Positions 9,001 through 20,000 are shown, counted from the first letter of the stretch. The stretch: DNA of 20,000 bases from an uncultured virus (IMG/VR IMGVR_UViG_3300008219_000006) (IMGVR_UViG_3300008219_000006), one strand, 5' to 3'. The notes: generated from the letters alone by a model not told the origin. Numbers and translations: made by a program.

Positions 9001-12000
9001 ACAGTATTCTCGTAGAAATAGAAAGAGCTCAGCAAGCTGGATATAAGGTTGTTACTTATAACGGCAATACTTTTGACTTTAAGCATCTAGTTAGGTTAGG
9101 AGCAGATCCTAAGATAGCTGCAAGAATTGCTACTAGAAGCATTGATTTGTATAGTCTCTTAAGAAGAATGAAAGCTAATCAAGATAGTCGTAAGGGAAGC
9201 TTAGGACGAATATCTGAACTACTTAATCTTGGTAAGAAAAAAGAAATTGGTGGATATATGGTTCACCTTTTGGAATTAAGGAAAAGTGGAAAGACTTTAG
9301 ATAAAACAGATTTACCTATAGCCTATAGAAATGATGAAATAGCTATTGATGAATTAAATAAAATTAATGATATGGATTCATCTGATCCATCTTTAGAAAC
9401 TCGTATTGTAAACTATACTCTTGAAGACGGTGTATTAACAAATAAACTATTTGCGGAGTTGTTAAAACGTCAAGGAGAAACTAATATTAGTCTTGGAGAA
9501 ATTGGAACTCTTGATTTAGTTACAGAACTGTATCCAAACTGGGCATTAGATATAGATGGAACTAGAGCTGTAACTAATAAAGATGCCTTTAAATGGATAG
9601 ATGATGTAGTTATTCCTAAGCTTATTGGTAAGGAAGAAGATACTTCTGACTTTGGATTGCATAACAAAGGGTTTGTGACTGAAACTGGGAGTAGATTTAG
9701 AGATCGAGCAGAGAGAGAAGCAAAAGAATTCTTTAGAAGAGGAAGGCTTTGGGCTGATAAGAGAGAATTCAATGAACAACGAGATAAACTAAACGGTAAG
9801 AACTACGATGCAATCGAGGTCTTGTCGTATCAAGACTTTATTAATGAGGTTTTAGGAGAATCAGTTACACTAACAGAAAATGATGGAAGACTAATGGCAG
9901 CTAAATATGCTATGGAAGCTATTATGGCTGAGCGTAAACCTACAGAACTTAATCTATTAGATTTAACTAGAGGTATAGATGAAGATGTAGATTTATCCGA
10001 TCTTGGGGATTCTAAAAAATTCGATCTTGTCTTTATACACAATGATGCTGCTCTTAAAATGAATAAAACATTATCTAGAGCAGAGAGAGATGGTACTCTT
10101 AAACCAGAAGTAGTAGTTGGGTTGAGAATAATGTTTGCTCATTTAGCTAGAATGAATCCAGACTTCTTTAGAACAGTCGAGTTTGAGATAGATCCTAGTG
10201 ATATATTCGATACTCAAGGAAGAAGGCAACGGGGTAGATTTGGTATTAAAGATAATAAATTCCATATGATTATAGATCCAAGAGAATCTACCGATGTTCA
10301 GATTGTTGAAATTGCTCTTCATGAAATCATAGGACATATGGGCGTTGAGAAGTTTGTTAGAAAGAATGAAGCTGATTGGGTAAGTATGGTTGAATGGCTA
10401 AGAACTGCTTCTGGTAGAAACGTAGTTGCAGACTTTGTAAAATCAAATCCAAAATATAGTCACTTAACTGAAGCAGAAAAGAATAAGAAAGTTGAATATT
10501 ACCAAACAAATCCTGAAGAATGGGCTGCTCTTTATATTTCTTATCAGCTTATGAAGGATGTTACTCATGATTCTATGATTGATATCAATAATCCTAAAAT
10601 TAATAGATCTCTAAGAGGCATGATTAATAAGATTGTGTCTTCAATAAGAAACCATCTTCAAACAATTACCGATGCTTTGTTTAGGTTTAGAAAGACATAT
10701 CCTCAAGCATATGAGATGATGGAACGAATTACAGAAAATGCTTATGGTTATCAAACAAAAGGTAATATAAGATATAGAAGAGAAGCACAAACTCCAAATC
10801 GAGTAGCAAACGATTATGAATCTACCCATGAAGGATCTGATACAGAAAACATGTATTCTTTTCTTAATCCCTTAGCCGGAGAACAGGGAGATAATGCTCT
10901 TACTCTTCATGCATTTGATAAAAATAGTGGGGTTAAGATGGGAACTCCTTTGAAGAAGGGAGAGCTTTCTGGACTAGCTAAGACAGAAGAAATTGAAACA
11001 TGGGTAAGAGAAGAAGAAAACGCTAGAAGAACTCGTATTGATTTAAGAAATGAATTAAATAATCTTACTATAGGTTCTGCTGAACACATCGCTAAACAAA
11101 TAGAGTTTGATAATGCTGCTAAAAAAGAAGGAGAAATATCTCAAAGAATAAGTGATAATGAATATAATAATCTTTTTGGACAATCAAGAAGAGAAGTAGC
11201 AGATAATAAAGTTGAATTAGCTAGAAGGTTTGGTGACGAACAAGTAGTTGATTATATGTTGGGTGATGAAGCTAATGGGTTTGTTATGAAACAACAACAA
11301 TACAACGCAGGTAAGCTAAGAGAGATAATGACTTCTAGTAAACAAGAAGATATTACATTAGCTAAAACATTCCTAGCTTTGTCTTTTGAAAATATGATTA
11401 AAAAGCGTGGAGACTATGTAAGAGAAAACGCAGAACGATGGTTATCTATGTTTCCTCATATATACATGAGATTAAACAGATTGGCAACAGGTGGTCTTGC
11501 TGGTCTTAATACTACTCAATCAGATCAAACATATTTAAATACCATTATTCCTATTGTTATCTTAAGTAATCTAGTTGTACCCGGACTTGAAAATGTTTCT
11601 GGTAATGTACAAAATACAAAGGGATGGGATAGTTTGGATGATAGGCGAAACGAGTTGTTTGATATAGAAGAAGCAGCTAGAGAGTATGATAAAGAATTTG
11701 TTAAGAATACTGTTGATGGTAAGACTATGACAGAAGTACAATTTGATCAAATAAAAGAACTATCTCTTTCTTTAATCAATGATCCATCTAGTGTCTCTTC
11801 CAGCCATCCTTTTTATGATTTAGCTAGAGAATATTCTAAGACATCTGAACAACTCATACAAAGAGCTACTGATTATCTTGTTAATGCCCGTGTATTACAA
11901 GAAAGACATTTAGAAAAACCAGAGCATAGACTTATGCTATCTTTAAACAAAACAAAAATAGGAGATCTTATATCTAAGAATCCAGATGTTATTACTCAAG

Positions 12001-14765
12001 CTAAGGATGAAATAAGAAGACAAGTTTTAGAAAATCTGTCTTTAACAGATACTTCATCTATTGTAGATCCTGTTTCTCTATATGCTTCTGGTATTCTACC
12101 TGACATAACATCAAGTGAAGTTAATCTTACTTTTATTAGAGGTTGGGATGATATGCCTTTGGTTATCAGAAATAAGATTGATCAAGAAATTAAAAACGAT
12201 CCTTCATTAATGACAATAACTGAATGGGATAGTGACATGCTTATGCTTGATACTAATCCTAGCTCTGAAGCTAAAGCTAGATTAAAGATATATAAAATTC
12301 GGAAACAAAAGGTTGAAGCATTATATAAGAAAGCAGATTACGGTGCTACTACTTTATCAGATATTATAGGATCTGGTACTTCTGCTGGAGAAGCAGCTTC
12401 TATCATATCACAATATAATTCTTCATTAGAAGCACACAATACTTCTTTAGTAGATAAGTTTAGAGCACATTCTGGAAGTTATCTGGCAACTATGATTCTT
12501 AGTGGAAATGGTTTAGCGAGAGATTCTGGTACTCATATGTTATTTACAAGTAAGGAAGCCAATAGTGTTGTTGGATTTAAATCATATCTTCTTATGAATA
12601 GAATTGGTTCTACTGCTTTTATTCCCCATTCAATTGTTGGAATACCTAAGTCTTATGAATTAATGACAAACGATAAAACAAAGATGTTGTTTAATACCGA
12701 TGTAGGTAGTATATCACGGGCTCTTACAAGAGGACCGGGATGGAATGCTGGAACAATTCTAGTAATGAAGGAATTTACTAATTCAAATATAAACTTTTCT
12801 GACTTTCTGGATATGTTTAGAAATGTTATTGATAACTCGCCTGATTTAGATAGTATTAATGTTATAGATCAGTCTGTTCTAAACCTTAGTACAAAAATGA
12901 GAACTGATCTTAAAAGCAAGATATTAGATGATATTGAAACTCTAAGAAGAAAGATGCAGATTACTGGTGGTATTGCACTTAGACAATATAATAGATGGAA
13001 TAGTGCAATTGATACTGCAAATGATTTTACTTCTACTTTGTTAGGACCAAACCTAACAGTAGCTACGCTAACTGTTGAAGGTATGATGAATACTACCTCT
13101 CTTATGTTTGGCGGTCCTCAAGGATTAAAGAACTTTGCAACTGCTGTGATTGATTCTATAGCATTTGCTTCTTCTGGTAGTACTAAAAAAGGACGTAGCC
13201 AAATGCGTCAGCTTGCTAGAGAAATGGGATGGTATGCAAAACATAAGAGACATAGTATGTTTGAAGTACACCGTTCTGTTCTTTATGGCGATGAACTCCA
13301 TGATGATGAAGTAGGTGGGCTTAAAAGATATCTTAGAAGAACTAAAACTTATTCTAATAGTGTAAACGGTGGTATTAATATTGCTCTTAGAAGTCAATCT
13401 ACTATGTCCTATAGAAAATGGTTTGCAGAAATTCTTGGAAATGATAAGCTTAAAGAATTAATTATTAAAGTAAATGATGCTAAAGAAAAAGGTGAGTTTA
13501 AAACTAGAGCAGATATTAAGAGGGTAGTAAAAGAAGTACTAGGTTCTTCTCATGGAAGAACTGAAGCTGTTTATCAAATGGCTAAAGCTGGTCTTTTAGA
13601 TCTTGATATTCTACCTGATATTAAAACTCTTATTGATGAATCTGATGTTGTATATGGTGTACATACTTATGGTGGTAGAATGAGAAACTACATAAGCGAA
13701 AAGACAGATACAGCAGAAAGAACAAGACTTAATGAGGTATTGCGGAAAATGAAGAATTGGGAAAATATCGTAGTACATATGAATATTGTTGATCCTAATG
13801 CTATGGATATTGATACAACGGATGTTCCTTTGTTTAGATGGTTAAGGCATTATAAGTCTTATCCAAATATCTTTGCTGCTCAAAGAGTTTTTAGAGATTC
13901 GTCTAAATATAGTTTACCAGCCTTTGTAGCTCGTATGTTCCGTTTCATGCTTCAGGAAATGATATATGCTATTATCACTATGCTAGCCGCCGGAATGTCA
14001 GCAGCTGTCTTAAAAGAAAGGTTTGAGAAAAACCCAATTAGTGAGATGACTGCACTCTTGCAAAGAAGTCCTATGTTAGGATACTGGGGAGAATTCATTG
14101 CTTCTACAGTAAGAACTATGCTATCAGCAGCCTCTGGAAAACTAGACGCTACTCCTTTGGCTAGAACTTTACTACCTGTAGGTGGTTCTCTTATGAGATC
14201 TCAATCTCAATCTTTGGTCAATGCTATTAGAGGTAATACTGATGGAGGAGACTGGGCAAACTATGCTCGTATGTTAACTCTAGCTCCTGTCCCAGTCCTT
14301 GGACAAATTGCAGGTAATCCATTTACTAGGATAGCTGTAAGTAGAACAATGGGTAAAGAGAAGTCAGCCAATAGTATGAGACAGAAGATGGGGGACAGAC
14401 TTGGGAAACCTAATGGTCGAGACAGCTTAAGAAATGGATTAGGTACGACCGTGGAACCCTCGGACTCAAGTCTATCCTCAAGAAATGTCTTCTTTACACC
14501 TGAGGAAAAGAACCTAAGTAATATCATGAAAGAACTATATCCAGATGCTATGAATTCACCATATGTTACAGATGTTGGTGTTTCTATAGATCCTGATGAT
14601 ATTAAAACTCCAGAAGCATCTCAAGTTATTCCTCAGTTACCTCCAAGAGATACTCCAGAGCCTAAGAGCAGTCGTGTCGATATTGCTAGTAAGAAACCTG
14701 ACCCGATCCAAGCTATTTCAGAGTCTTCAAAACCTATGGAGATACCTCCAGAATTAATTGAATAA
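3..14765 (+). CDS. Giant virion-ejected polyvalent protein, 5'-partial (>4915 aa), with RNAP-like, exonuclease, metallopeptidase and gp16-like regions
   Basis: Uninterrupted frame from base 3 (CGC AGT CTT CTC TAT TTG...) to TAA ending at 14765, so the true start lies upstream of the window. Motifs: YADLNAAGIHSHFSVLM and RKLIKHPIMVKLYWAG (single-subunit RNAP motifs A and B); VIDIET / YNGNTFD / YTLED (Exo I-III); HEIIGH...PEEW (zincin). No Cys seen on reading the translation. Confidence 0.9.
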   Translation, partial: RSLLYLETGVKTTEQILDVIMPTRWASFVGTKLGYVDNLTFSEKMSDALHFRKAAFTRRLKLAPFDALEGFIEGSIVHIADANERGANWTLGSMIQEGGIEAVVSIGLNPTMRAAMQGGSGLLGAGAQLTNKFVSKNNDPVITDLMNRASRIVFRPRSLEEQMEAVDKYDKFIEFGSRYKNIFGEYSHAERIEAGEAKYLFPTDPKRANRERNFLDSLFDTVQLLAQAQNVENQTSWTLNKMDEILSMLEKKVKDEKRPSMGIKEAAELSIKSLIGSIDAVVKADPDFDINLANNLKNMIASEYKTFLLLDIARNHVDPITGEKKELTIEEVIEKIDPTKDEFDVNLWFKTFTEAERELLNDEMDRRGLKLEDITDDPKLTQEIVEKVTEDWMGRTEDTRRLEDDAQKKRIEHASALSDFLEQPITIQDIRTGETIVVGGDRYTGTPLTIDEAIKKKNDTADEVESEPEIDEEEVEITELTPREQRIIRNSQERLQKGLEAYKKAKTPKEKKSALKQIANAVWKTEGRLNKITKERAGKEIIDLQNESQGILTKENIEIGPDKAGDPMDFNRVDTEVSDIKGETADTSENFVILQVKQPVIRQGNERLQYAKVVLTPAEKFTPEPIDAPQTIVPTEPPAEPKKKTKSQRRKLLEKANDAEAVAEGSFEKISEDRKEMLIDVNNIDIELAQLKAQLDQMSDEFYETEEGKKIKEIADKQAKLNEKRNELLREMGFESRTHSVDGSSLKSVKEAIISFAKEDIESEKNRLKEIEKDTNILENTKRVLAKKLGKDATDNDKQELLKQKRSILLKFLTNKRNNDTVAGIAKAAEIPVEFIKALKNNEVVSLEEFDRILSNTKIQSYLTGIIKDVKKYGTLEADVVKNNIEKANERITNAGTLASKWMENVKSGRKNLHELGKAQRAASKVHKYQEMTELRAKIANVSLAKGTSVARLADIQPDFDNLVELAYIKQVISDTKASKRDLKQRMKGKRTITKADLKIVMLGNYHTHEYIDGFFVTSEDYSGLDEDSEIDIDKARDIISSFGEWRKNTLGKHVGIQLQNATLANRRPEALNNLSDGLKTAVNIEEFGPNDKPLINITPEQAKTNAKSRRVEVKDTAESIGQLGLDLLKATKLLSNLKRLNGRYSNIGLVVAQLKQAGLENLNFDHPIFHTELSPVILKHAGDIMYDAKNELDLTELYPLDITIDGIKSDDYLNVIVDINELENILTALASQINNKLQIMVNEGIRGADTQITNMDEASLNLYKQYELVTRLHEGLLEHISTMTNPLRRGWDRDLDSQFLQLGDTTYETTPHEYRQTVENYFARGLGDIQNKRLWDGYRDLFEQYLITRKPDPKSIDLDIKELYEQILRDEVTFDHNSQITLMYKLVQEVLGIEDITQLGGLSEGSRLALDWVSAEEAGFALADFIFRREEVSLYRRVVKRKSSSKTGEGEITSEQQITDSEQGTETELQAKSVRSDIPLSARNLARNWEESVYRHRMRKSLEYLTTASDEEVELVIASIRESVPSKAEAYKKYADETGKDVKTLTAEEKTKAIKTFYLPEKEKVAKMATTYSFLPQMTNRSPGETITNFERWESFVFEVMMDWPVLGMNLIHDGRYYTDGTVVEFLGKDESHQRYADDNDLDVETLTEDQIKEAERVYPPEMLHMKPSTAARGTRAQRSEDKVRKAAHAGMPIGKLTLAGFFTQWAHGRLNINFEEFAKSALTLGNETVKSLGINNLFNFTSSKNYADLNAAGIHSHFSVLMMTPKNREAAEALLDKLVNQRNKVLGTTPEDQYLEASEFVLETALHTLEISGLHTDIFPGIQSLEKIAAEFDFEGVLKDIKAGRKKTARVEKFRKLIKHPIMVKLYWAGQEGIKSSFSDAKDAGLLEGFTEQDLDWFALFLAQGGAVLRHNLLNHALQNKDGKPTSDVLGESMGVDMGDRQEALRILKDLANQETDVVKNYMDLYGKQIEGRDTKARTLEKSLEDFVSAKALYLAQGDLARAEELKPKIRAEHKKRIENLQEYLRENGLKEESLNDPVVMNQHRGEIERIMMGWEGDAWKEMPMLRAINEKNAQPVTLAIDEKTKAAGKPAGIDMDHVGEHWLMGSLLDKFTLFIEYGIDTSSGRYNPMDPSPLTPYNSTLGSFRSDEKPYSIWKTENNRFAKMATDEEGNLDPKKMRAYINRLIAIDLSIRMIQDYDPPIPNFEPYTEKDFWADWQTESDHTVASREREINFWEDPENNDYEISKEEFNKNTYGGTRDHRSRPLFARRNIDYKSNQEMSTKDPAGIAALRPRTGKPGNLMHDRGSMFLRKESLNRKLREKEQRLEHLRNTINTTEIDTNIMSDIISGAHPFQSDTLPVGPTPDTTTLSHVFGDTIDEQVYRAIRNIENKIRPWAMERGYYKEVKDNKWGRLWIMWEMDRLHKNTIRETRQILKSFRGADVWDQNDIEIGMRQIRLSYYDKLYKLRSVVHELRSKGFDSREADIMENQLSAHINMDDMTYIELARTLADSGFAQDSRVFTPAPHHLMAIDPETAADPVEFTRTVEGPIAMHHLEQALAEHEIVFISYVNEELNILSKEDTELGKYLRDKRDTFESGRHLNWKDLQNMMWSENETVNQWAMDILDKAEKKAINAEHKNFYIYLDPDSETRSTMTYDRKEEGNVKRLWGGWSPLISQKPIGSARYHLTPEGLQQLFVNIRSTLFKKLEDRQITGISTLHSEPSLAQRLDSGYQADTRRSHEALLKAFELMGDTEVGDYTLVDKSRRSSFDDREPQRVLDIDKLSGMKIVTGNRFDHAWDRAYYSQWEATKEAARRQGKTRLLDYLINQEELNPELVKIHAISLHAENFMGLGTEEARIYAAAITNKDVDWVDKNTLLLDNLQQEINKWEFSGPLEKAIMELERHHRNTSTENTLDRTNVDNLRKVLKVFGMEDSAIDAMPEFKDYNKWMNNGLSVVIDIETDIAEDGVPTKIYRVVKHYSRKNTKAGFISEVVTGEDLNSILVEIERAQQAGYKVVTYNGNTFDFKHLVRLGADPKIAARIATRSIDLYSLLRRMKANQDSRKGSLGRISELLNLGKKKEIGGYMVHLLELRKSGKTLDKTDLPIAYRNDEIAIDELNKINDMDSSDPSLETRIVNYTLEDGVLTNKLFAELLKRQGETNISLGEIGTLDLVTELYPNWALDIDGTRAVTNKDAFKWIDDVVIPKLIGKEEDTSDFGLHNKGFVTETGSRFRDRAEREAKEFFRRGRLWADKREFNEQRDKLNGKNYDAIEVLSYQDFINEVLGESVTLTENDGRLMAAKYAMEAIMAERKPTELNLLDLTRGIDEDVDLSDLGDSKKFDLVFIHNDAALKMNKTLSRAERDGTLKPEVVVGLRIMFAHLARMNPDFFRTVEFEIDPSDIFDTQGRRQRGRFGIKDNKFHMIIDPRESTDVQIVEIALHEIIGHMGVEKFVRKNEADWVSMVEWLRTASGRNVVADFVKSNPKYSHLTEAEKNKKVEYYQTNPEEWAALYISYQLMKDVTHDSMIDINNPKINRSLRGMINKIVSSIRNHLQTITDALFRFRKTYPQAYEMMERITENAYGYQTKGNIRYRREAQTPNRVANDYESTHEGSDTENMYSFLNPLAGEQGDNALTLHAFDKNSGVKMGTPLKKGELSGLAKTEEIETWVREEENARRTRIDLRNELNNLTIGSAEHIAKQIEFDNAAKKEGEISQRISDNEYNNLFGQSRREVADNKVELARRFGDEQVVDYMLGDEANGFVMKQQQYNAGKLREIMTSSKQEDITLAKTFLALSFENMIKKRGDYVRENAERWLSMFPHIYMRLNRLATGGLAGLNTTQSDQTYLNTIIPIVILSNLVVPGLENVSGNVQNTKGWDSLDDRRNELFDIEEAAREYDKEFVKNTVDGKTMTEVQFDQIKELSLSLINDPSSVSSSHPFYDLAREYSKTSEQLIQRATDYLVNARVLQERHLEKPEHRLMLSLNKTKIGDLISKNPDVITQAKDEIRRQVLENLSLTDTSSIVDPVSLYASGILPDITSSEVNLTFIRGWDDMPLVIRNKIDQEIKNDPSLMTITEWDSDMLMLDTNPSSEAKARLKIYKIRKQKVEALYKKADYGATTLSDIIGSGTSAGEAASIISQYNSSLEAHNTSLVDKFRAHSGSYLATMILSGNGLARDSGTHMLFTSKEANSVVGFKSYLLMNRIGSTAFIPHSIVGIPKSYELMTNDKTKMLFNTDVGSISRALTRGPGWNAGTILVMKEFTNSNINFSDFLDMFRNVIDNSPDLDSINVIDQSVLNLSTKMRTDLKSKILDDIETLRRKMQITGGIALRQYNRWNSAIDTANDFTSTLLGPNLTVATLTVEGMMNTTSLMFGGPQGLKNFATAVIDSIAFASSGSTKKGRSQMRQLAREMGWYAKHKRHSMFEVHRSVLYGDELHDDEVGGLKRYLRRTKTYSNSVNGGINIALRSQSTMSYRKWFAEILGNDKLKELIIKVNDAKEKGEFKTRADIKRVVKEVLGSSHGRTEAVYQMAKAGLLDLDILPDIKTLIDESDVVYGVHTYGGRMRNYISEKTDTAERTRLNEVLRKMKNWENIVVHMNIVDPNAMDIDTTDVPLFRWLRHYKSYPNIFAAQRVFRDSSKYSLPAFVARMFRFMLQEMIYAIITMLAAGMSAAVLKERFEKNPISEMTALLQRSPMLGYWGEFIASTVRTMLSAASGKLDATPLARTLLPVGGSLMRSQSQSLVNAIRGNTDGGDWANYARMLTLAPVPVLGQIAGNPFTRIAVSRTMGKEKSANSMRQKMGDRLGKPNGRDSLRNGLGTTVEPSDSSLSSRNVFFTPEEKNLSNIMKELYPDAMNSPYVTDVGVSIDPDDIKTPEASQVIPQLPPRDTPEPKSSRVDIASKKPDPIQAISESSKPMEIPPELIE
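1545..1856 (+). other. GrpE-like domain within the giant protein
   Basis: Helical segment ending ...QGILTKENIEIGPDKAGDPMD...FVILQVKQPVIRQGNERLQYAKVVLT resembles the GrpE C-terminal pattern (GV..I...G.PFDP...V..V.Q.GY...GR.LR.A.V.V). By-eye match only. Confidence 0.45.
4830..5640 (+). other. T7/N4-type single-subunit RNA polymerase core within the giant protein (DxxGR-like motif, motif A, motif B)
   Basis: In the correct order: IHDGRYY (~4842), D-LNAAGIHSHFSVLM (Asp codon 5250; cf. T7 DGSCSGIQHFSAML), DQY (5382; cf. T7 DIY) and R-x3-K-x3-M-x3-Y-x2-G (5571-5618; cf. T7 RSVTKRSVMTLAYG). Motif C not confidently identified. Confidence 0.7.
8862..9465 (+). other. DEDDy (DnaQ-like, RNase H fold) 3'-5' exonuclease domain within the giant protein
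   Basis: ExoI VVIDIET (D 8877, E 8883), ExoII VTYNGNTFD (9057-9077), the typical SIDLY...SLGRISELLNLGKK segment, and ExoIII NYTLED (9414-9428). Confidence 0.85.
10200..10560 (+). other. Zincin-like metallopeptidase (MPTase-type) domain within the giant protein
   Basis: RGRF...MIID...IALHEIIGHMG (HE at 10320-10325, H at 10335) with a downstream PEEWAA (10512-10529), the pattern of metallopeptidases found in phage polyvalent proteins. Confidence 0.75.
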
Positions 14766-14780
14766 TTGGGTAAAGGAGAG

Positions 14781-14885
14781 GGGGGACCTAGGGACCTAGG
14801 TTTATATTATATATATAATATATAACTAGGGTAAACTAAGGACCTAGGAAATCGACTAGGGGTCACGAATACACAGCTAGGGAGA
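14781..14885. repeat. Cluster of CTAGG/CCTAGG short repeats around a perfect 20-bp AT palindrome; candidate genome end or replication origin
   Basis: TATATTATATATATAATATA (14803-14822) is its own reverse complement and is flanked by CCTAGG/CTAGG. About seven CTAGG/CTAAGG copies occur in ~100 bp, followed by CCCCCCGTACCCCCC and GGGGTACC. Confidence 0.6.
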
Positions 14886-15043
14886 GATTATAAGAGGACT
14901 TTCTTTTCCCCCCGTACCCCCCTTAATTCTTTCGCTATAAAAAGCGATGGGGTACCGAGTGCTAATTGAAACTAGCCTACTGCCCGTGGAAGGGCTTGCA
15001 GGTGGCTGGTGCTCATTATATCCTACCGGATATGGTGGGCATT

Positions 15044-15280
15044 ATGGATAATCCTATTATCCAGACCTTGCGAGGCATGGTCAAGATAGGAGCATCGTTG
15101 TTCCTAATTTGGCTCATGCTTCAAGCAGCTTATGAAAGTATGTCTATGCTTTCACAAGCGGTGGATAGTTATGGTGTGGACTTCGCTTACAACGATCACC
15201 TCCTTTGGGCGGCGATTTCGTTTGGCGCAGCTTCAATCATAATCTCCATCATGTTTGTTCGCTCCCTTTATAGGGACTGA
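15044..15280 (+). CDS. Small hypothetical membrane protein with two hydrophobic segments; start uncertain (15044 or 15077)
   Basis: Hydrophobic stretches IGASLFLIWLMLQAAY and LLWAAISFGAASIIISIMFV. No strong Shine-Dalgarno sequence seen. Confidence 0.55.
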   Translation: MDNPIIQTLRGMVKIGASLFLIWLMLQAAYESMSMLSQAVDSYGVDFAYNDHLLWAAISFGAASIIISIMFVRSLYRD

Positions 15281-15538
15281 ACAGCATCTGCTGCATGATC
15301 CATTGGAGGTTGGTCTGCCAATGGCGGGGTTGTTGAACCCGATACCTTGTCACTCAAGGGGTTCACTGTGGCTCATTCACATCTGATGAGGAGTGTCGTT
15401 GCTCTCCAGCGACAATCTCTAGGACACTTAGATCCTAAGCATCTACCTGATGATCATTTCGATAAGAGATAATTCTTATACCCTGAGCTAGCTAGGGTTG
15501 TACAGCTAGCAATCATGTTTCCTTTGAAAGGACATGCC

Positions 15539-15883
15539 ATGTCAAATCCAAATCTGTTCAAGCGTTTGCTTGGGCGCGTTTGGAAAAGTACTGTTGCCGA
15601 GCAACAGCCTCATAATGAGTCAGAGGTGAAAGACTCTAGTTTCGACCAACTAAAAGATACTCGTGACGTTTGTAGGTTTGATACCTATGACCCAGATCGA
15701 TCTATTCTTGTTAGTCGGCTTAAGAATTCTATCTTCATCTGGGAAATGCGCAACGGAGCAATCAACCGTAGACGCATAAGTTCCAGACTTACATTAGAAT
15801 TAGATCTATTTGCTAGATCTCCTAAAAATTCTATTAGTAAGGAAGAGCTCGTTGACATGGTTCGTAAAGAACTTGTTGACTAA
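15539..15883 (+). CDS. Hypothetical protein (114 aa)
   Basis: AAAGGA at 15527-15532 lies 6 nt before ATG 15539, in frame with the listed ORF 15515..15883; followed by a strong hairpin. Confidence 0.75.
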   Translation: MSNPNLFKRLLGRVWKSTVAEQQPHNESEVKDSSFDQLKDTRDVCRFDTYDPDRSILVSRLKNSIFIWEMRNGAINRRRISSRLTLELDLFARSPKNSISKEELVDMVRKELVD

Positions 15884-15893
15884 GAGTGAACCT

Positions 15894-15927
15894 ATGGCAC
15901 TACAGGCTACCGCTTGTAGTGTCATTT
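15894..15927 (+). terminator. 14-bp RNA hairpin with TACC loop; terminator or RNase III-type processing site
   Basis: ATGGCACTACAGGC-TACC-GCTTGTAGTGTCAT with two G.U pairs, 10 nt after the stop codon; only a short T run follows. Confidence 0.5.
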
Positions 15928-15987
15928 GCCCTAGGTTAGTCGGGGCTGCAAAGTGACTAACTGAGTTCTTCCATAGGAGGCACTGCG

Positions 15988-16191
15988 ATAGCAGAACCTA
16001 CTAAGAAGTCCGAAGCTATTGAGCGTTTGTTTCGTGAACTCAATGGTGGCGTGGACAGGCGTACTATGATCGACTCCGATCTGTGTGCGGTCTGTGCTCA
16101 GCCAGCTACTGAGTTCAGCGACGCGCTCAGCCGCAAGGAATACACCATCTCTGGTATGTGTCAAGCATGCCAAGATAGTGTGTTCCGCTAG
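15988..16191 (+). CDS. Small CxxC...CxxC zinc-finger protein (67 aa), not in the ORF track; probable ATA start
   Basis: AGGAGG (15975-15980) + 7 nt + ATA GCA GAA CCT gives (M)AEPTKKSEAIERLFRELNGGVDRRTMIDSDLCAVCAQPATEFSDALSRKEYTISGMCQACQDSVFR*. In-frame TAA at 15958; first in-frame ATG only at 16066. Confidence 0.8.
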   Translation: MAEPTKKSEAIERLFRELNGGVDRRTMIDSDLCAVCAQPATEFSDALSRKEYTISGMCQACQDSVFR

Positions 16192-16244
16192 CGGTTAGCG
16201 TCGGAACAACGTCCCTCCGCCTGAGGTTTCGCCCTAGGGAGGGG

Positions 16245-16287
16245 CTTCATACCTGTGCTCTTCTCTATGGAGAGCACGGGTATGAGG
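16245..16287 (+). promoter_or_regulatory. 19-bp intergenic RNA hairpin, candidate RNase III site upstream of the RNAP gene
   Basis: CTTCATACCTGTGCTCTTC-TCTAT-GGAGAGCACGGGTATGAGG; the non-Watson-Crick positions are G.U pairs on the + strand. Confidence 0.5.
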
Positions 16288-16511
16288 TACACGTTGTATC
16301 TCGTTCGACCTAAGCATGTCGTTAAAGGGCTTATGCTGATTCTTCCAAGGAAGAGTAGACTCAGGAGACGAGTCCGACTGAGGGCGTGATTCTCAAGGGG
16401 TTTTTAAACCGACAGGTTTTTGATCCTATTGCACTTGTTGTGCATTCCTTTACTCTCTGGGATAAAGAGAGGAACCCTTTACTACTTTCGAGTAGTATAA
16501 AGGAGATAATT

Positions 16512-18305
16512 ATGAAGAAATTCATAGTTATGCTTGAGGCTCTGCCCAAGCGTTATCGGGAACCTCTGGTCGCCTTCGGGTTGACTAAGTTCATCACCCT
16601 TCGTATTCAGCTACGTAGGGACAACCGCAGTATCCATCAGATCATTGATCAGATGCGAGAACAGGTTGGTCTGTCTAACTTTGGTTACTCTTTGAGTCTT
16701 GATGACTTGAAGAAGGCCGAGTTGGCGATTTGCGCTGGTGATGCCGTACTTCCTTCGACTGATCGTATGGAGGGGTACGTTTTGGAATCACCGCACGTAG
16801 TTGGTCGGGACGATTCAAGGCGATCCGTCATGAGTCGTAACGGTAATGCTCAAGTTCCTAAGCGTGTGACGAACGCACTTAACTATCTCGGTAGTGTGGG
16901 TTTTGATATCCACCCTGAGATGGAGCACCTTCTTCTGGATAATAAGGAGAAGTGGTTGTGCGATCAGACCAAGCCGTTGTATCTTGAGCTGGAGCGAATT
17001 GAGGATTGGGATAAGTTCTTCCTAACCTCCTACCTCGATTGGAGAGGTCGCTTCTACGCAGGTTCTGGTATCCTGTCTTATCAAGGAGATGCCACTAATC
17101 GTGGGTTGGTCTGCTTTGCAGATCCATCTCCTTTCTCCGATAAGCAATGGGATTCCATTCGTACTTTCCTTCGTGGAGAGTATGGTGTCGCTCCCGATGT
17201 TCTCTCGTTTGCTTCTGAGGACTATACTCTTAAGCAACAGGCAGGATGGCTAGCACAAACAGATCGCACATTTGCCGAGCGATATATTGTGCAGCTCGAT
17301 ACCCACAGTTCTGGTCCACTTATGGTGGCTCTCATGATGAGAGACGAGCGTTTGTTGCGTGTCATCCTAACTTCAGACTTTTATATGGCGTTCCTTAAGC
17401 CGTATATGGAGTCTGGCACATCTTGGGCCAAGAGGCTGAGTGCTATATCTGAGGACGAAACTAGAGATCAGGTTGCTAAGCCCTGTGGTATTAACACCAT
17501 GTATGGGACAGCGGCTGATGCTCTGGCATATTCGTATGCAGGATTGACAATCAACGGTGTTACGCCTGAGATGTCTATCCTTGATTCTGGCAGCAAAAGT
17601 GATCCTAAGCCCGGTTTGGTGTCACTCCTTGAAACTGGAGTGGTTCTTGAATCGAATCTATCTTGGGAGATCCAACCCTGTCTTCGTCCTTACTTGATGA
17701 GTCTGTCCGTTTCTGAACGGTTACGACAGCTCTGCTACCTCGCAAGAGATATGCAGAACGCACTCTTCAGTGAGTTTCCCTCCATTAGGGTTTATCTCAA
17801 CACACTCTCTGGTGCTGCTAATAGCTGGTGGAAGAATACGCAAACTTCTTTCAGTTTCCAGCACCCTCTTGATAAGAATATCATCATCAAGCCTTTCCCG
17901 CACAAGCGTACTGATGTGCCTGTAAAGGATTATATTGATATTCGTGTCCTTTCCAAACGGCTCCGTAGGAACTTGTGTCCAATGGAGTTTGGTCGAGGTC
18001 GAGTCTCTGCGTGTGCGCCTTGCTTCACACACATGATTGATGCCGTGATCGTGACCCTTGTGGTTAACGAGTGCGAGCGAATGGATATTCCTATCGCTCC
18101 TATACACGACTCCTTCGGTGTGCCGATAGCTTATGTTGATGTTGTTAAAGACATCTTCAAGCAAGTCGTGATCTGGATGTTCACTGAGAATGATTATCTA
18201 GGTGACTTCTGCAAGGCTCATGACAAGACCCTCCCTGAGCGGTCTAGTCTTTCCGAGTTTGACATTGAAAGTCTGCTCGATGAGCTTCCATCCTGTATAG
18301 GGTGA
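16512..18305 (+). CDS. Compact T7/T3-type single-subunit DNA-directed RNA polymerase (597 aa)
   Basis: AAGGAG SD before ATG 16512. YLDWRGRFY (Asp 17037), QGDATNRGLVCFA, motif A QLDTHSSGPLMVALMMRDE (Asp 17298), DFY, motif B RDQVAKPCGINTMYG (17463-17507), APCFTHMIDA (cf. T7 APNFVHSQDG), motif C IHDSFG (18102-18119). Confidence 0.93.
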   Translation: MKKFIVMLEALPKRYREPLVAFGLTKFITLRIQLRRDNRSIHQIIDQMREQVGLSNFGYSLSLDDLKKAELAICAGDAVLPSTDRMEGYVLESPHVVGRDDSRRSVMSRNGNAQVPKRVTNALNYLGSVGFDIHPEMEHLLLDNKEKWLCDQTKPLYLELERIEDWDKFFLTSYLDWRGRFYAGSGILSYQGDATNRGLVCFADPSPFSDKQWDSIRTFLRGEYGVAPDVLSFASEDYTLKQQAGWLAQTDRTFAERYIVQLDTHSSGPLMVALMMRDERLLRVILTSDFYMAFLKPYMESGTSWAKRLSAISEDETRDQVAKPCGINTMYGTAADALAYSYAGLTINGVTPEMSILDSGSKSDPKPGLVSLLETGVVLESNLSWEIQPCLRPYLMSLSVSERLRQLCYLARDMQNALFSEFPSIRVYLNTLSGAANSWWKNTQTSFSFQHPLDKNIIIKPFPHKRTDVPVKDYIDIRVLSKRLRRNLCPMEFGRGRVSACAPCFTHMIDAVIVTLVVNECERMDIPIAPIHDSFGVPIAYVDVVKDIFKQVVIWMFTENDYLGDFCKAHDKTLPERSSLSEFDIESLLDELPSCIG

Positions 18306-18310
18306 AGCCC

Positions 18311-18346
18311 AGCCCTCTCTACCTTAGCGGGTAGGGAGGTGCTTTT
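18311..18346 (+). terminator. Rho-independent terminator after the RNAP gene
   Basis: CCTCTCTACCT-TAGC-GGGTAGGGAGG followed by TGCTTTT, just after the TGA ending at 18305. Confidence 0.65.
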
Positions 18347-18396
18347 GCTCACAGAACGTCTGTGAGTGTCTTTGTCCCTTTTCTTAGGAGGTTGCT

Positions 18397-18843
18397 ATGA
18401 AAAGCAACAAATCAATCCTTCTTAAAAGTCAAGAAGGATATTCAATGGTGTGCTTCACTATCAAGCCATCCTCGAACATGGTAACGGTTACCAAGACGCG
18501 AAAGCCCTTGGTTACCATCCCATTGTTTGATCTGGCTAGCCGTGTGAAGGAGGAACTCTCCCTTGGTTTCAAGATTGAGGAAGTTCCGTCTAGTCTGCGG
18601 CACTTTGAGGCTGACACCATTAACTACCAGTACGATATCGAGGGTATGGTAACGATGTGGGCTAATATAGAAGAGATTCTATGTAATTCTCTCATATCTT
18701 CCTATACTCTTGGGGTCAAGGGTGGTGACTTTGGGTTAGCTAAGAAAGCTTTCTTTGATACTTTCAATGCACATCACAAAGGCTCTAAGACTCTTCGTAT
18801 TCGTAGTGGATTAGCTGACGCTCGCTATACGCGGATCAGTTGA
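18397..18843 (+). CDS. Hypothetical protein (148 aa)
   Basis: Strong SD AGGAGG(T) just upstream of ATG 18397; followed by a hairpin. No motif recognised. Confidence 0.85.
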   Translation: MKSNKSILLKSQEGYSMVCFTIKPSSNMVTVTKTRKPLVTIPLFDLASRVKEELSLGFKIEEVPSSLRHFEADTINYQYDIEGMVTMWANIEEILCNSLISSYTLGVKGGDFGLAKKAFFDTFNAHHKGSKTLRIRSGLADARYTRIS

Positions 18844-18849
18844 TCTCAG

Positions 18850-18883
18850 GGGCTTACACCTCTTACCAGAGGGTAGGTCCTTT
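18850..18883 (+). terminator. Terminator-like hairpin with TACC loop
   Basis: GGGCTTAC-A-CCTCT-TACC-AGAGG-GTAGGTCC followed by TTT, just after the stop at 18843. Confidence 0.55.
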
Positions 18884-18887
18884 CCAG

Positions 18888-19082
18888 TCTCGCCTTCGGC
18901 GGGAACAACCTTCGGTTTCAACCTTCGGTTCAACCTTCGGTTCAACCCTTCGTACTACCGGAACTTCGTACCTGATTCCCTTCGGGCTCCATTCTCCGGC
19001 CCTTCGTGCCTCTCAGGCTTCGCCTCAGGGCTTTCAGCCCCTCGGAGGTCCTTCGGACCCCCCTAGGAACGCTTCGCTTAGG
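18888..19082 (-). repeat. Array of about 11 mini-hairpins with TTC (+ strand) / GAA (- strand) triloops, including three tandem CAACCTTCGGTT copies
   Basis: CGCC-TTC-GGCG, AACC-TTC-GGTT x3, GGAAC-TTC-GTACC, CCC-TTC-GGG, GGCCC-TTC-GTGCC, AGGC-TTC-GCCT, GGGCT-TTC-AGCCC, GGTCC-TTC-GGACC, GC-TTC-GC. Confidence 0.85.
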
Positions 19083-19231
19083 AACGATTCTCTGGTCAGG
19101 AGCGGGGACCCCCGCGTTTATGGGAACCCCTGCTTTTTTCCCATCAACCTTGCGCCGTCCACCGGAGCTGTTGGACATCCAACCATCTTTGGTAAGTCCA
19201 AGGTCAGCTCCTCGTGTACGGCTATGTGAAG

Positions 19232-19352
19232 CGAAGAGGGAGATGTTATGGCATATTAGTGCTAAAATCTTAAGGAATTACTCCAAAGCGTAATGCGGCT
19301 TAAGATTGATCAGTCCACCGACGCGAGGCTGACTTAACATCTCCTCTCTTCG
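19232..19352 (+). ncRNA. Candidate structured RNA (four-way junction), family unknown
   Basis: 17-bp closing stem CGAAGAGGGAGATGTTA / TAACATCTCC-T-CTCTTCG enclosing three hairpins (19249-19264, 19266-19307, 19310-19332) in a gene-free interval. Confidence 0.45.
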
Positions 19353-19410
19353 GGGATCAGCTCTCTATTGTGGCTCGATATAGCAGGGAACAGTAGAGAG
19401 CCGATCCCTG
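19351..19410 (+). promoter_or_regulatory. Long imperfect RNA hairpin, candidate RNase III site
   Basis: CGGGGATC-A-GCTCTCTATTGT ... ACAGTAGAGAGC-C-GATCCCTG: about 20 bp with G.U pairs and one mismatch, upstream of the 19459 gene. Confidence 0.5.
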
Positions 19411-19458
19411 CAGAGATTTAAATTCATTTAGCTTTAACCGATCTAGGGAGGATCAATC

Positions 19459-19683
19459 ATGACTCAAATCGTCATAGAAATCTACCACCCATACTCCGTT
19501 GCTGTTCAATGCGATGGTGACTGGGACTGTTATAACTGCCTAACGGAGGCAGCTGAAGTAGCAAAGGGCTACATGATGGAGCACCCAGATGCCTCCATCG
19601 AAATCGTGAACTCATTTGCCACGAACGAGTGGCAACAACGAAAGTGGCGGCGAAGGCTCGCCAGAGAGGAAGTCATATCATGA
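19459..19683 (+). CDS. Hypothetical protein (74 aa)
   Basis: GGAGGA SD 6 nt before ATG 19459; its stop overlaps the next start (ATGA). Confidence 0.8.
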   Translation: MTQIVIEIYHPYSVAVQCDGDWDCYNCLTEAAEVAKGYMMEHPDASIEIVNSFATNEWQQRKWRRRLAREEVIS

Positions 19684-19940
19684 CTCAACTAGACAAGTTC
19701 CGTAATGCGGAACAATACAAGGACACGATTCTTCGTGGAATCGCGCTCAACCCCAAGGCAGGAACTGCCCGTGGCAATGCCAAGGAAGTCTTGTCTGAAC
19801 GAGGTGTAACCCTCGAAAGCGTAGTCGAGAAGGACTACAGTACTCTGGACGAAGGACAGCTGGAAAACATCATCAGCATGGAACATTCCAGAGAAGCAAC
19901 GAAGGCTGCTGCTCAAACTGAGCTTGACAGTCGAAACTAA
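19680..19940 (+). CDS. Hypothetical protein (86 aa)
   Basis: ATG 19680 in an ATGA overlap with the upstream stop, GAGGA upstream, in frame with the listed ORF 19629..19940; followed by a terminator. Confidence 0.8.
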   Translation: MTQLDKFRNAEQYKDTILRGIALNPKAGTARGNAKEVLSERGVTLESVVEKDYSTLDEGQLENIISMEHSREATKAAAQTELDSRN

Positions 19941-19955
19941 AGAAGGCTAAGAGCG

Positions 19956-19986
19956 GAGGGGTGAAATTCCCCTCTTTTCTTTTTTC
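19956..19986 (+). terminator. Rho-independent terminator
   Basis: GAGGGG-TGAAATT-CCCCTC followed by TTTTCTTTTTT. Confidence 0.85.
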
Positions 19987-20000
19987 TCGAATATAAATAG

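What the first reader, a model, noticed from the sequence alone, without database searches (positions are those of the whole stretch)
18888..19082. Array of about 11 GAA-triloop DNA mini-hairpins with variable stems
Seen: within ~195 bp nearly every stem-loop has the loop TTC, almost always closed by a C-G pair, while stems differ yet stay complementary (CGCC/GGCG, AACC/GGTT x3, AGGC/GCCT, GGTCC/GGACC, GGGCT/AGCCC, CCC/GGG), which implies selection on structure. The stems pair as triloops, not as cUUCGg RNA tetraloops, so the likely functional form is C-GAA-G on the minus (template) strand. Known: d(C-GNA-G) triloops are exceptionally stable, nuclease-resistant ssDNA hairpins, and N4 vRNAP promoters are template-strand hairpins with such triloops. 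Inference: a clustered promoter or loading site for one of the two RNAPs, a single-strand origin, or a barrier to the exonuclease.
Basis: partly seen in the sequence, partly recalled or inferred. Interest (0 to 1): 0.85.

Follow-up and report, generated by a model that had tools for sequence, protein, structure and literature searches.

The report
Conserved mini-hairpin array in marine phage
A non-coding stretch of a new T7-like marine phage carries 11 same-direction copies of CTTCG, most of them tiny three-base-loop hairpins; a distant relative keeps the array at the same spot, and its function is not yet known.

Summary
CTTCG occurs 11 times on the + strand in 18894-19076, against about 1 in dinucleotide shuffles. 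Eight loci are real 3-5 bp triloop hairpins, counting one TTC loop closed by T-A. Stems pair with their own flanks far better than with each other's.

The region is not coding and matches no Rfam family. It is the most GC-rich spot of the genome.

The only relative found is a 64-kb, T7-like marine phage (RNAP2 53-55% identical). It has 8 CTTCG copies at the syntenic place: after a giant ORF, a small second RNA polymerase (RNAP2) and a 148-aa ORF, and before small early-type ORFs. A roughly 160-nt core just downstream is more conserved than the flanking genes.

The same stem-CTTCG-stem hairpin, same orientation, lies 49-95 nt from the left end of T7, T3, phiKMV and K1-5. In N4 it lies at the position expected for virion-polymerase promoter P1.

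Best reading (about 0.3): minus-strand C-GAA-G DNA hairpins at the late/early boundary act as a structure-specific start or loading site for a phage polymerase. Rivals are a terminal-repeat end element, an RNA element and protein-binding repeats. No transcript or genome-end data exist.

The parts
14761..14778 (+). Candidate promoter for the phage's canonical T7-like polymerase (RNAP1), AATAATTGGGTAAAGGAG. It sits just after the giant ORF and upstream of the RNAP2 block. This is context, not part of the array.
   Evidence: The motif AATA(A/G)TTGGGTAA(A/T)GGAG occurs 4 times on the + strand in the 35.2-kb merged sequence, at 14766, 24063, 27860 and 35142 (the position of TTGGGTA), all between ORFs. 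The promoter role is inferred.
16386..18305 (+). RNAP2, a 639-aa minimal single-subunit RNA polymerase.
   Evidence: Pfam PF00940 E 1.8e-10; PHROG 414 E 2.7e-26. Its family profile matches mitochondrial RNAP (1e-40), T7 RNAP (1e-35) and the N4 RNAPII subunits 6dt7 (2.8e-14, 1.5e-8). Profile position 113 aligns with T7 residue 307, so most of the N-terminal domain is missing.
18397..18843 (+). 148-aa ORF of unknown fold that always sits between RNAP2 and the array.
   Evidence: 31% identical to the 149-aa ORF at the same place in the relative, E 8e-19. No Pfam or PHROG hit. AlphaFold pLDDT 85.6. No clear structural match.
18848..18882 (+). Long hairpin directly after the stop codon of the 148-aa ORF.
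   Evidence: Present in the minimum-free-energy RNA fold. The relative has a different, AT-rich hairpin at the same place.
18888..19082 (.). The array: 11 CTTCG on the + strand, which read CGAAG on the - strand. Eight triloop hairpins lie at 18891-18901, 18907-18917, 18920-18930, 18932-18942, 18978-18986, 19015-19025, 19028-19040 (T-A closed) and 19047-19059.
   Evidence: The 12-nt tandem repeat spans 18906-18952. One public contig lacks one 12-nt unit at 18917.
19066..19078 (.). GGAACGCTTCGCT, the last array unit, identical in both phages. On the - strand it contains the GCGAAGC heptamer.
   Evidence: Alignments.
19098..19228 (+). Conserved core. It holds a GCGGGGACCCCCGC hairpin (19102-19115), GTTTATGGG, a T6 run (19134-19139) inside the ATGGGAA/TTCCCAT stem (19120-19144), and a branched rod at 19154-19222 (outer GCCGT/ACGGC, GGAGCTG/CAGCTCC, inner hairpins).
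   Evidence: 0.77 nucleotide identity over 19066-19225, against 0.61-0.67 in the flanking genes. The RNAalifold run over 19060-19235 gives 41 pairs, 3 with both sides changed and several G-U pairs on the + strand. A covariance model built on 19098-19228 finds it only in the two phages. No Rfam match.
19239..19416 (+). Two long inverted repeats found only in this phage and absent from the relative: arms 19239-19253/19330-19344 and 19345-19371/19390-19416.
   Evidence: the repeat finder pairs I5 and I1. The alignment shows about 200 nt that the relative lacks.
19459..19940 (+). The first two small early-type ORFs downstream (74 aa, and 86 aa from 19680). Their Shine-Dalgarno and start region is conserved.
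   Evidence: 33% and 59% identical to the relative's ORFs at the same places.

Best explanation
The array acts as DNA, not as protein or as a simple RNA terminator. Each unit is a short palindrome. On the - strand, which is the template for every gene here, it folds into a C-GAA-G mini-hairpin. That is the unusually stable form, resistant to nuclease and SSB.

The array sits at the boundary between the last late-type genes (giant ORF, RNAP2, 148-aa ORF) and the first early-type ORFs of a T7-like genome. In T7-like phages and N4, the leading (left) genome end lies in this kind of position.

The mechanism I commit to: when this stretch is unwound, the - strand hairpins form and give a phage polymerase a structure-specific place to bind and start rightward synthesis. 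Unwinding could come from supercoiling during entry or from exposure of the end as single strand. The most likely polymerase is the adjacent minimal RNAP2, which lacks most of the promoter-binding N-terminal domain. The logic is that of N4 promoter P1, multiplied to 8-11 copies.

**Shown:** the motif, the stems, the strand bias, the conservation, the synteny and the non-coding status.

**Inferred:** that hairpins form in vivo, which strand acts, which enzyme uses them, and that the genome end is nearby.
For: - **Invariant loop and closure, varying stems.** Loop and closing pair are fixed, while stems vary and pair specifically with their own flanks. The tetraloop register that RNA stability would favour gives only 0-2 pairs. 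An invariant TTC loop has no special stability of its own, whereas its complement C-GAA-G does (review PMC13037366, passages).
- **Conserved in position and orientation.** The relative keeps 8 copies, although the neighbouring proteins are only 31-59% identical.
- **N4 parallel.** N4 has GTTGC-TTC-GCAAC at 90-102 on the coding strand, upstream of gp1. The review says N4 promoters have GGA or GAA loops. The N4 review states that the template-strand hairpin is the active form and that SSB spares it.
- **Orientation fits.** All ORFs are on the + strand, so the GAA hairpins lie on the template strand upstream of the early ORFs.
- **No conventional promoter nearby.** No sigma-70-like + strand site was found in 17885-20000, nor in the relative from 8656 to 11400. 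No copy of the candidate RNAP1 promoter lies between 14766 and 24063. Some other start signal is therefore needed here.
- **RNAP2 is minimal.** At 639 aa it is similar in size to N4 RNAPII (673 aa), which binds only single-stranded DNA and needs a cofactor.
- **Arrays and RNAP2 co-occur.** None of the 80 loci around ordinary T7-like polymerases has a cluster of more than 5 CTTCG.
Against: - **Stems are short.** Only 1 of the 19 CTTCG units has 5 contiguous pairs and 8 of 19 have 2 or fewer. N4 promoters use 5-7 bp stems.
- **No shared downstream sequence.** Nothing common follows the hairpins, whereas N4 promoters are conserved from -17 to +1.
- **Spacing is tight.** Units 12-16 nt apart cannot all be independent promoters.
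- **A T6 run intervenes.** A conserved terminator-like stem with T6 lies between the array and the first ORF.
- **The core favours RNA.** Its pairing uses G-U on the + strand, which fits an RNA running through this region.
- **Folding energy is unremarkable.** The - strand folded as DNA is not more stable than shuffles, z -1.06. From memory, the energy model may lack the special GNA-loop bonus.
- **RNAP2 is not N4-vRNAP-like.** It gave no match to N4 mini-vRNAP at E <= 0.01.
- **The hairpin exists without a virion polymerase.** T7, T3, phiKMV and K1-5 have it near their left ends.
- **Thin sampling.** Only two lineages exist, so the link between RNAP2 and the array rests on n = 2.
- **No direct data** on transcripts or genome ends.
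Confidence: 0.3

Rival explanations
1. Terminal-repeat or concatemer-junction element, as in T7. The array lies in or beside the direct terminal repeat. When the repeat is single-stranded after incomplete end replication or 5'-3' resection, the strand ending 3' at the left end carries the C-GAA-G hairpins. These hairpins protect the tail from exonucleases and SSB, or guide annealing and processing of concatemers.
For: - A stem-CTTCG-stem hairpin with TTC on the coding strand lies 49-95 nt from the left end in 4 of 11 Autographiviridae records sampled. These are T7 (7 bp), T3 (6 bp, with stem changes relative to T7), phiKMV (5 bp) and K1-5 (5 bp).
- The background rate is 5 such hairpins in 1.30 Mb, so 0.004 would be expected in 11 x 100 nt.
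- In T3 and phiKMV the hairpin lies inside the annotated terminal repeat. In T7 it lies inside the 160-bp repeat (length from PMC4925675, Table 3).
- Next to its repeat, T7 has 12 same-orientation CCTAAAG-like heptamers at irregular spacing. That is the same architecture as this array.
- The genome of the relative is T7-like, and the array lies between its last and first gene blocks.
- Mini-hairpins resist nucleases and bind SSB poorly.
- High nucleotide conservation fits a packaging or end sequence.
Against: - The physical ends are unknown. No contig is classed as having terminal repeats, and contigs run through the array without breaks.
- The T7-type pause motif ATCTGTT is not present in the region (read).
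- Seven of 11 sampled T7-like left ends lack the hairpin.
- As far as my searches went, the T7 hairpin has no known function.
Confidence: 0.2
2. RNA-level element. The array and core are transcribed in the + sense. They could be the structured 3' end of the RNAP2/148-aa transcript (stabiliser plus terminator), the leader of the early operon, or a separate small RNA whose C-UUC-G hairpins are bound by a protein.
For: - The array is the most GC-rich 150 nt of both genomes: 0.65 against a mean of 0.38, and 0.64 against 0.35.
- The 397-nt stretch folds better than shuffles as RNA, z -4.2. For the relative z is -2.1.
- The core has compensatory changes and several G-U pairs on the + strand, which would be A-C mismatches on the other strand.
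- A T6 run after GC-rich stems is conserved.
- The first array hairpin extends to 7 pairs through one G-T on the + strand.
Against: - Stems sit in the triloop register, not the cUUCGg tetraloop register that RNA stability selects. Three- to five-pair UUC triloop hairpins are marginal as RNA.
- There is no Rfam match down to E 10.
- The terminator reading is weak in the relative: the simple scan reports no terminator there.
- One array stem has an A-C on the + strand that would be G-T on the - strand (19046/19060, read output).
- No RNA run is available either way.
Confidence: 0.25
3. Double-stranded DNA repeats bound by a protein. Candidates are the small terminase at a pac site, a replication initiator or a repressor. 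The flank complementarity would then reflect a partly palindromic binding site, CCnnnGG.
For: - There are same-orientation short repeats at irregular spacing in a non-coding region between gene blocks.
- CCTTCGG occurs 6 times here and 4 times in the relative.
- The copy number of the 12-nt unit varies between strains.
Against: - Stems beyond CC/GG differ between units yet stay complementary. A fixed binding site does not predict this.
- A palindromic site would not keep TTC always on one strand.
- No DNA-binding protein was identified next to the array.
Confidence: 0.1

Closest known systems
Bacteriophage N4 early promoters (P1, P2) used by the virion RNA polymerase
   Same: - Both are template-strand hairpins with a 3-nt G-N-A loop closed by C-G. 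N4 P1 reads stem-CTTCG-stem on the coding strand, exactly as here.
- Both lie upstream of co-oriented early genes.
- Both are linked to a T7-family polymerase other than the canonical one.
   Different: - N4 has three dispersed promoters with 5-7 bp stems and conserved -17 to +1 sequence. Here 8-11 units are packed into 135-185 nt, with 1-5 bp stems and no shared downstream sequence.
- RNAP2 is not detectably related to N4 vRNAP beyond the family level.
- Packaging of RNAP2 into the virion is unknown.
T7-group terminal repeat hairpin and the adjacent short-repeat arrays
   Same: - The genome type is the same.
- T7, T3, phiKMV and K1-5 carry one stem-CTTCG-stem hairpin in the same orientation near the left end.
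- T7 has 12 same-orientation heptamers at irregular spacing next to its repeat.
   Different: - Those phages have one hairpin, not 8-11, and its stem is longer (5-7 bp).
- The T7 heptamer (CCTAAAG) is not a hairpin.
- It is not known whether this array lies in a terminal repeat.
Single-strand initiation signals and mini-hairpin DNA (RSF1010 ssiA, the phage G4 origin)
   Same: The CCGAAGG mini-hairpin named for ssiA is the - strand reading of the commonest unit here, CCTTCGG. Such hairpins mark primase start sites on single-stranded DNA.
   Different: - ssi signals are single elements of about 40 nt, recognised by dedicated primases.
- No RepB'-type primase was looked for or seen. The phage has a T7-type primase-helicase.
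RNA hairpins with cUUCGg tetraloops in intrinsic terminators
   Same: The letters CTTCGG occur in GC-rich stems, with a T-run nearby.
   Different: The register differs: these stems close a 3-nt loop, and the tetraloop register gives 0-2 pairs. A true example was seen in unrelated locus L165, where a long stem closes CTTCGG and is followed by T6.

Membership tests
N4-type hairpin promoter for a virion RNA polymerase | Template-strand hairpin with a 3-nt loop, purine centre, C-G closure (GC-rich heptamer GCG(A/G)AGC) | tested here: met
   GAA loop and C-G closure on the - strand at 11 of 11 units here and 8 of 8 in the relative. The exact heptamer GCGAAGC occurs at 2 of 11 and 2 of 8; CCGAAGG occurs at 6 and 4.
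N4-type hairpin promoter for a virion RNA polymerase | Stem of 5-7 base pairs | tested here: not met
   Contiguous pairs are 4,4,4,4,1,2,3,1,4,5,2 here and 4,1,3,4,1,4,2,2 in the relative. Only 1 of 19 reaches 5.
N4-type hairpin promoter for a virion RNA polymerase | Conserved sequence from -17 to +1, with a fixed distance to the start site | tested here: not met
   Apart from the tandem copies, the units share no sequence downstream of the hairpin (flanks listed). N4 P1 and P2 share TT(A/T)TGGA after the stem.
N4-type hairpin promoter for a virion RNA polymerase | A virion-packaged polymerase of the N4 vRNAP type | tested here: inconclusive
   The RNAP2 profile matched T7, mitochondrial and N4 RNAPII chains but no N4 mini-vRNAP chain at E <= 0.01. 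Packaging cannot be tested here.
T7-group terminal repeat element | Lies within or next to a direct terminal repeat | not testable with these tools
   Only contigs are available. IMG/VR classes both records as linear without end repeats. Laid contigs show no molecule ends.
T7-group terminal repeat element | Stem-CTTCG-stem hairpin with TTC on the coding strand | tested here: met
Intrinsic terminator with a cUUCGg tetraloop | Stem closing the 4-nt loop TTCG, followed directly by a T-run | tested here: not met
   The tetraloop register gives 0-2 pairs at all 19 units. The only T6 run lies about 55 nt after the last unit.
Protein-coding tandem repeat | Motif in one codon phase, with a reading frame conserved between relatives | tested here: not met
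   Phases are 0,1,2,2,0,1,2,0,1,1,1. The conserved block is in phase 0 in the ORF here and in phase 1 or 2 in the relative's ORFs. The 129-aa ORF has no Pfam or PHROG hit.
Any Rfam RNA family | Covariance-model match | tested here: not met
   No match within 18844-19344 at E up to 10. The only noncoding-gap hit is the chance mir-515 match at 19345-19416, E 5.5.
Single-strand initiation signal (RSF1010 ssiA type) | CCGAAGG mini-hairpin inside a roughly 40-nt hairpin used by a RepB'-type primase | tested here: inconclusive
   The mini-hairpin letters are present. The long enclosing hairpin is not seen in the folds. The primase was not searched for.

The most novel reading that the evidence does not exclude
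A T7-like phage lineage has added a second, minimal RNA polymerase that starts on extruded template-strand GAA mini-hairpins. This would be N4-style hairpin promoter logic moved into a T7-type genome and multiplied to 8-11 copies. In addition, the stem-CTTCG-stem hairpin 49-95 nt from the left end of T7, T3, phiKMV, K1-5 and N4 would be one shared, ancient leading-end signal of podoviruses with single-subunit polymerases.
Probability: 0.2. Interest if true: 0.85.

Novelty: new variant of a known kind. Interest (0 to 1): 0.62.

Why it matters
Hairpin promoters on single-stranded or extruded DNA are known in detail from only one phage group, N4. Here the same mini-hairpin appears as a conserved multi-copy array beside a minimal second polymerase in a T7-type genome.

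If the link is real, it gives a second, independent system for studying how T7-family polymerases read DNA structure rather than sequence. It would also give a compact polymerase/hairpin pair of possible use as a tool.

Single copies of the same hairpin lie near the left end of T7, T3, phiKMV and K1-5, where I found no described function. This suggests an overlooked end signal in very well studied phages that could be tested directly in T7.

Tried and rejected
**Database and similarity searches**
- Rfam at E up to 10: nothing in the array or core.
- blastn of 18300-20000 against 50,697 phage records: no match.
- tRNA scan: none.
- No whole genome is held for the window.

**Search for relatives**
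- Queries were RNAP2, the 148-aa ORF, the giant-ORF C-terminus, a core pattern, the distant RNAP2 homologue P0003, and a 10-sequence RNAP2 alignment.
- Only the window's own phage and one other lineage turned up.
- Two of the four core-pattern hits (L010, L013) were chance matches in glycine-rich coding sequence.
- The covariance model of the core found nothing in 95 sources (768 kb) beyond the two phages.

**Scan of viral contigs for CCTTCGG x3**
I analysed all of them.
- Most are coding repeats with spacing in multiples of 3, or exact tandem repeats.
- I read 12 loci by eye. Only L108 looks like an irregular non-coding hairpin cluster, and I did not follow it up.
- The PF00940 search in three of those records is void, because its control found nothing anywhere.

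**Expression and genome ends**
- No RNA holder was listed among the sequencing runs.
- Laid contigs gave no molecule ends.

**The 148-aa protein**
- Foldseek against PDB: no match at E <= 0.001.
- VIA-align: best Z 7.7, within the noise range the tool states. There are weak WGR-like rows for residues 1-65 and dsRBD-like rows for 67-131.
- The Atlas gives weak WGR-like rows below its bar.
- BLASTP against N4 gp2: E 0.73.

**Literature**
- I found nothing on the T7 terminal-repeat hairpin, searching 'bacteriophage T7 / terminal repeat / concatemer / hairpin' and the 11-mer itself. Passages of two hits held nothing relevant.

**Reading rejected**
- Translation of the 129-aa ORF 18840-19229.

Full report
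**What is there**

The window is one strand of a phage: every sizeable ORF is on the + strand. In order, it holds:
- a giant open frame, 3-14765, at least 4920 aa;
- a 639-aa single-subunit RNA polymerase, here called RNAP2 (16386-18305; PF00940 E 1.8e-10, PHROG 414 E 2.7e-26);
- a 148-aa ORF (18397-18843);
- a 615-nt gap without a credible gene (18844-19458);
- small ORFs from 19459 onward.

The reported array lies in that gap.

**The observation**

CTTCG starts 11 times on the + strand between 18894 and 19072, and never on the - strand there. Dinucleotide-preserving shuffles of 18888-19082 give a mean of 1.04 copies and at most 5 in 5000 trials.

In the triloop register the stems have 4,4,4,4,1,2,3,1,4,5,2 contiguous Watson-Crick pairs, counting the C-G closure. 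With GGGCT-TTC-AGCCC (19028-19040, closed by T-A) there are eight real hairpins.

Four CTTCG loci have little or no stem, so 'about 11 hairpins' overcounts. The invariant feature is the pentamer.

The tetraloop register gives 0-2 pairs everywhere.

Complementarity is specific to each unit. Own flanks give 1.82 extra pairs on average, against 0.44 when flanks of different units are paired. None of 20000 permutations reached the observed mean.

Elsewhere in the two phage sequences, only 3 of 43 + strand and 6 of 84 - strand CTTCG have three or more pairs.

**Not coding, not a known RNA**

- The motif falls in all three codon phases.
- The chance ORFs that cross the region here (18840-19229) and in the relative read the conserved block GGAGCTGTTGG in different frames.
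- The 129-aa ORF has no Pfam or PHROG hit.
- Rfam gives nothing in the array or core at E up to 10.

**Relatives**

A 24,138-bp IMG/VR contig overlaps the window from 11067 with 2 differences, which extends the sequence to 35.2 kb.

One other lineage was found, in two TARA scaffolds and a 64,002-bp IMG/VR contig rated 95% complete.

| Protein | Identity to the window's phage |
|---|---|
| RNAP2 | 53-55% |
| Giant protein | 38% |
| 148-aa ORF | 31% |
| First downstream ORF | 33% |
| Second downstream ORF | 59% |

At the syntenic place this relative has 8 CTTCG on the same strand in 135 nt. Shuffles give a mean of 0.86 and a maximum of 5. Its stems are 4,1,3,4,1,4,2,2.

Some units are plainly orthologous, such as TTCCCTTCGGGCT and GGAACGCTTCGCT. 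Others differ in the stem while staying paired, for example AGGC/GCCT against CGGC/GCCG.

No further lineage turned up in seven scans of viral and metagenome collections.

**Genome context**

The relative's genome is T7-like. Its gene order is:
1. small early-type ORFs;
2. a canonical 814-aa T7-type polymerase, RNAP1 (PHROG 414, E 6e-153);
3. a gp2.5-like SSB, primase-helicase, exonuclease and ribonucleotide reductase;
4. portal, scaffold, capsid and tail genes, then the large terminase;
5. a lysin-like protein, the 5199-aa giant protein, RNAP2 and the 149-aa ORF;
6. the array.

The array therefore marks the junction between the last and the first gene blocks. It is also the most GC-rich 150 nt of each genome: 0.647 against 0.383, and 0.64 against 0.346.

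In this phage a candidate RNAP1 promoter, AATA(A/G)TTGGGTAA(A/T)GGAG, occurs four times in 35 kb. One copy lies just upstream of the RNAP2 block, and none lies between 14766 and 24063.

The simple sigma-70 scan finds no + strand site between 17885 and 20000, or between 8656 and 11400 in the relative.

**The conserved core**

Directly after the array, about 160 nt (19066-19225) are 0.77 identical between the phages, against 0.61-0.67 for the flanking genes. The core contains:
- a GC hairpin (19102-19115);
- GTTTATGGG;
- an invariant CCTGCTTTTTTC;
- a branched rod (19154-19222).

RNAalifold predicts 41 pairs. Three changed on both sides, and several are G-U on the + strand. This part therefore looks like a + sense RNA, or + strand DNA, structure.

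A covariance model of the core matched only these two phages in 768 kb of loci, including 80 loci around ordinary T7-like polymerases.

**Comparison with known systems**

- **Mini-hairpin DNA.** A 2026 review (passages read) describes GCGAAGC-type mini-hairpin DNA as extremely stable, nuclease-resistant and poorly bound by SSB. It names the CCGAAGG hairpin of RSF1010 ssiA, and N4 virion-polymerase promoters with 5-bp stems and GGA or GAA loops.
- **N4.** The N4 record shows GTTGC-TTC-GCAAC at 90-102, upstream of gp1, and AAGAAGC-TCC-GCTTCTT at 557, upstream of gp2. N4 P1 thus reads stem-CTTCG-stem on the coding strand, exactly as the units here. The N4 review (passages) states several points. 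The template-strand hairpin is the active form and SSB spares it. The sequence from -17 to +1 is conserved. N4 RNAPII (673 aa) is a minimal polymerase that binds only single-stranded DNA and needs gp2.
- **RNAP2.** At 639 aa it is comparably small. Its family profile aligns from about position 113 with T7 residue 307, so most of the N-terminal domain is missing. It matched T7, mitochondrial and N4 RNAPII chains, but no N4 mini-vRNAP chain at E <= 0.01.
- **T7-type left ends.** T7 has GTCAACC-TTC-GGTTGAC at 66-82 of its terminal repeat. T3 has TTAACC-TTC-GGTTAA at 79-93, inside its annotated repeat. phiKMV has CCGGC-TTC-GCCGG at 76-88, inside its annotated repeat. K1-5 has CCGTC-TTC-GACGG at 49-61.
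  - That is 4 of 11 Autographiviridae left ends sampled. gh-1, SP6, Syn5, K1F, K11, LKA1 and LUZ100 have none.
  - T7 and T3 are close relatives, so they are not independent.
  - In the 80 T7-like loci such hairpins with 5 or more pairs occur 5 times in 1.30 Mb, so 0.004 would be expected in 11 x 100 nt.
  - All four have TTC on the coding strand.
  - T7 also carries 12 same-orientation CCTAAAG-like heptamers at irregular spacing next to its repeat.
  - I found nothing in print on the T7 hairpin.

**Weighing the readings**

The fixed loop and closure, together with varying but paired stems in the triloop register, argue that structure with a specific loop is selected. Of the two strands, only the - strand form (C-GAA-G) has known special properties. 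That favours a DNA-level role for the array itself.

The position (upstream of co-oriented early ORFs that lack recognisable promoters), the identity with N4 P1, and the adjacent minimal polymerase favour a start or loading site. I give that reading about 0.3.

Several points count against it:
- stems are short;
- there is no shared downstream sequence;
- the units are crowded;
- a conserved T-run lies between the array and the first ORF;
- the same hairpin exists in phages that have no second polymerase.

That last point feeds the terminal-repeat reading (0.2). The two are not exclusive, because N4 P1 also sits 90 nt from a genome end.

The core's + strand wobble pairs, the GC island and the RNA fold scores (z -4.2 and -2.1) keep an RNA role alive (0.25). 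The - strand DNA fold is no better than shuffles, z -1.06.

Duplex protein-binding repeats get 0.1.

No run on record as RNA holds the region. Contigs laid on it show no molecule ends, only a variant lacking one 12-nt unit.

**Verdict**

This is a real, conserved, strand-asymmetric mini-hairpin array. It is a new multi-copy variant of a known kind of signal, and its function is open.

Noticed in passing
T7 66-82, T3 79-93, phiKMV 76-88, K1-5 49-61, N4 90-102 (loci L220, L221, L225, L231, L227): The same stem-CTTCG-stem triloop hairpin, always with TTC on the coding strand, lies 49-95 nt from the left end of these phages. It is in 4 of 11 Autographiviridae sampled, plus N4 at the position expected for promoter P1. 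About 0.004 would be expected by chance. I found no paper on the T7 copy.
   Followed up: partly
window 3-14765: A giant ORF of at least 4920 aa (5199 aa in the relative, 38% identical). Its only domain hit is RNase H-like (PF13482, residues 2958-3087, E 7.6e-6). An HEIIGH motif is seen by eye. There is no PHROG family. It is probably an internal or ejected virion protein.
   Followed up: partly
window 16386-18305: A T7-like phage with two single-subunit RNA polymerases: a canonical 814-aa enzyme in the early region and this 639-aa minimal one at the far end of the late block. Among 1.84 billion representative proteins, only 9 match RNAP2 at E <= 1e-10.
   Followed up: partly
merged sequence 14766, 24063, 27860, 35142 (the first is in the window): The repeated intergenic motif AATA(A/G)TTGGGTAA(A/T)GGAG is a likely promoter for the canonical phage polymerase. 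The relative has only one copy.
   Followed up: partly
window 14784-14830: Directly after the giant ORF there is a GGACCTAGGGACCTAGG hairpin followed by an (AT)-rich run. The relative has a similar AT-rich stretch, with a sigma-70-like site, upstream of RNAP2. This could be an alternative candidate for the genome end or the early promoter region.
   Followed up: no
window 14800-20000: The whole RNAP2 block, up to the first early ORFs, is richer in G+C (0.43-0.57) than the giant ORF (about 0.41) and the genome mean (0.38). The relative shows the same pattern.
   Followed up: no
window 18917: One public contig (run X15, depth 2) lacks one 12-nt unit of the CAACCTTCGGTT repeat, so copy number varies between strains.
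   Followed up: no
window 19239-19416: Two long inverted repeats (15-nt and 27-nt arms) lie just upstream of the first early ORF. They are absent from the relative. By position they recall the RNase III sites of T7 early RNA.
   Followed up: no
window 18397-18843: The 148-aa protein folds confidently (pLDDT 85.6) into two beta-sheet-plus-helix halves with no clear structural relative. There are weak WGR-like rows for residues 1-65 from two tools, all within the noise range.
   Followed up: partly
L108 (40.6-kb viral contig, about 12430-12510), L169 (end of a 73-kb contig), L101 (68-kb contig with terminal repeats): Other viral contigs have non-coding CCTTCGG clusters. L108 has an irregular cluster of 5 CTTCG in 70 nt upstream of an ORF. 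L169 and L101 have exact 14-nt tandem repeats; the L169 repeat sits at the very end of its contig, just before a TTGACA-type promoter.
   Followed up: no
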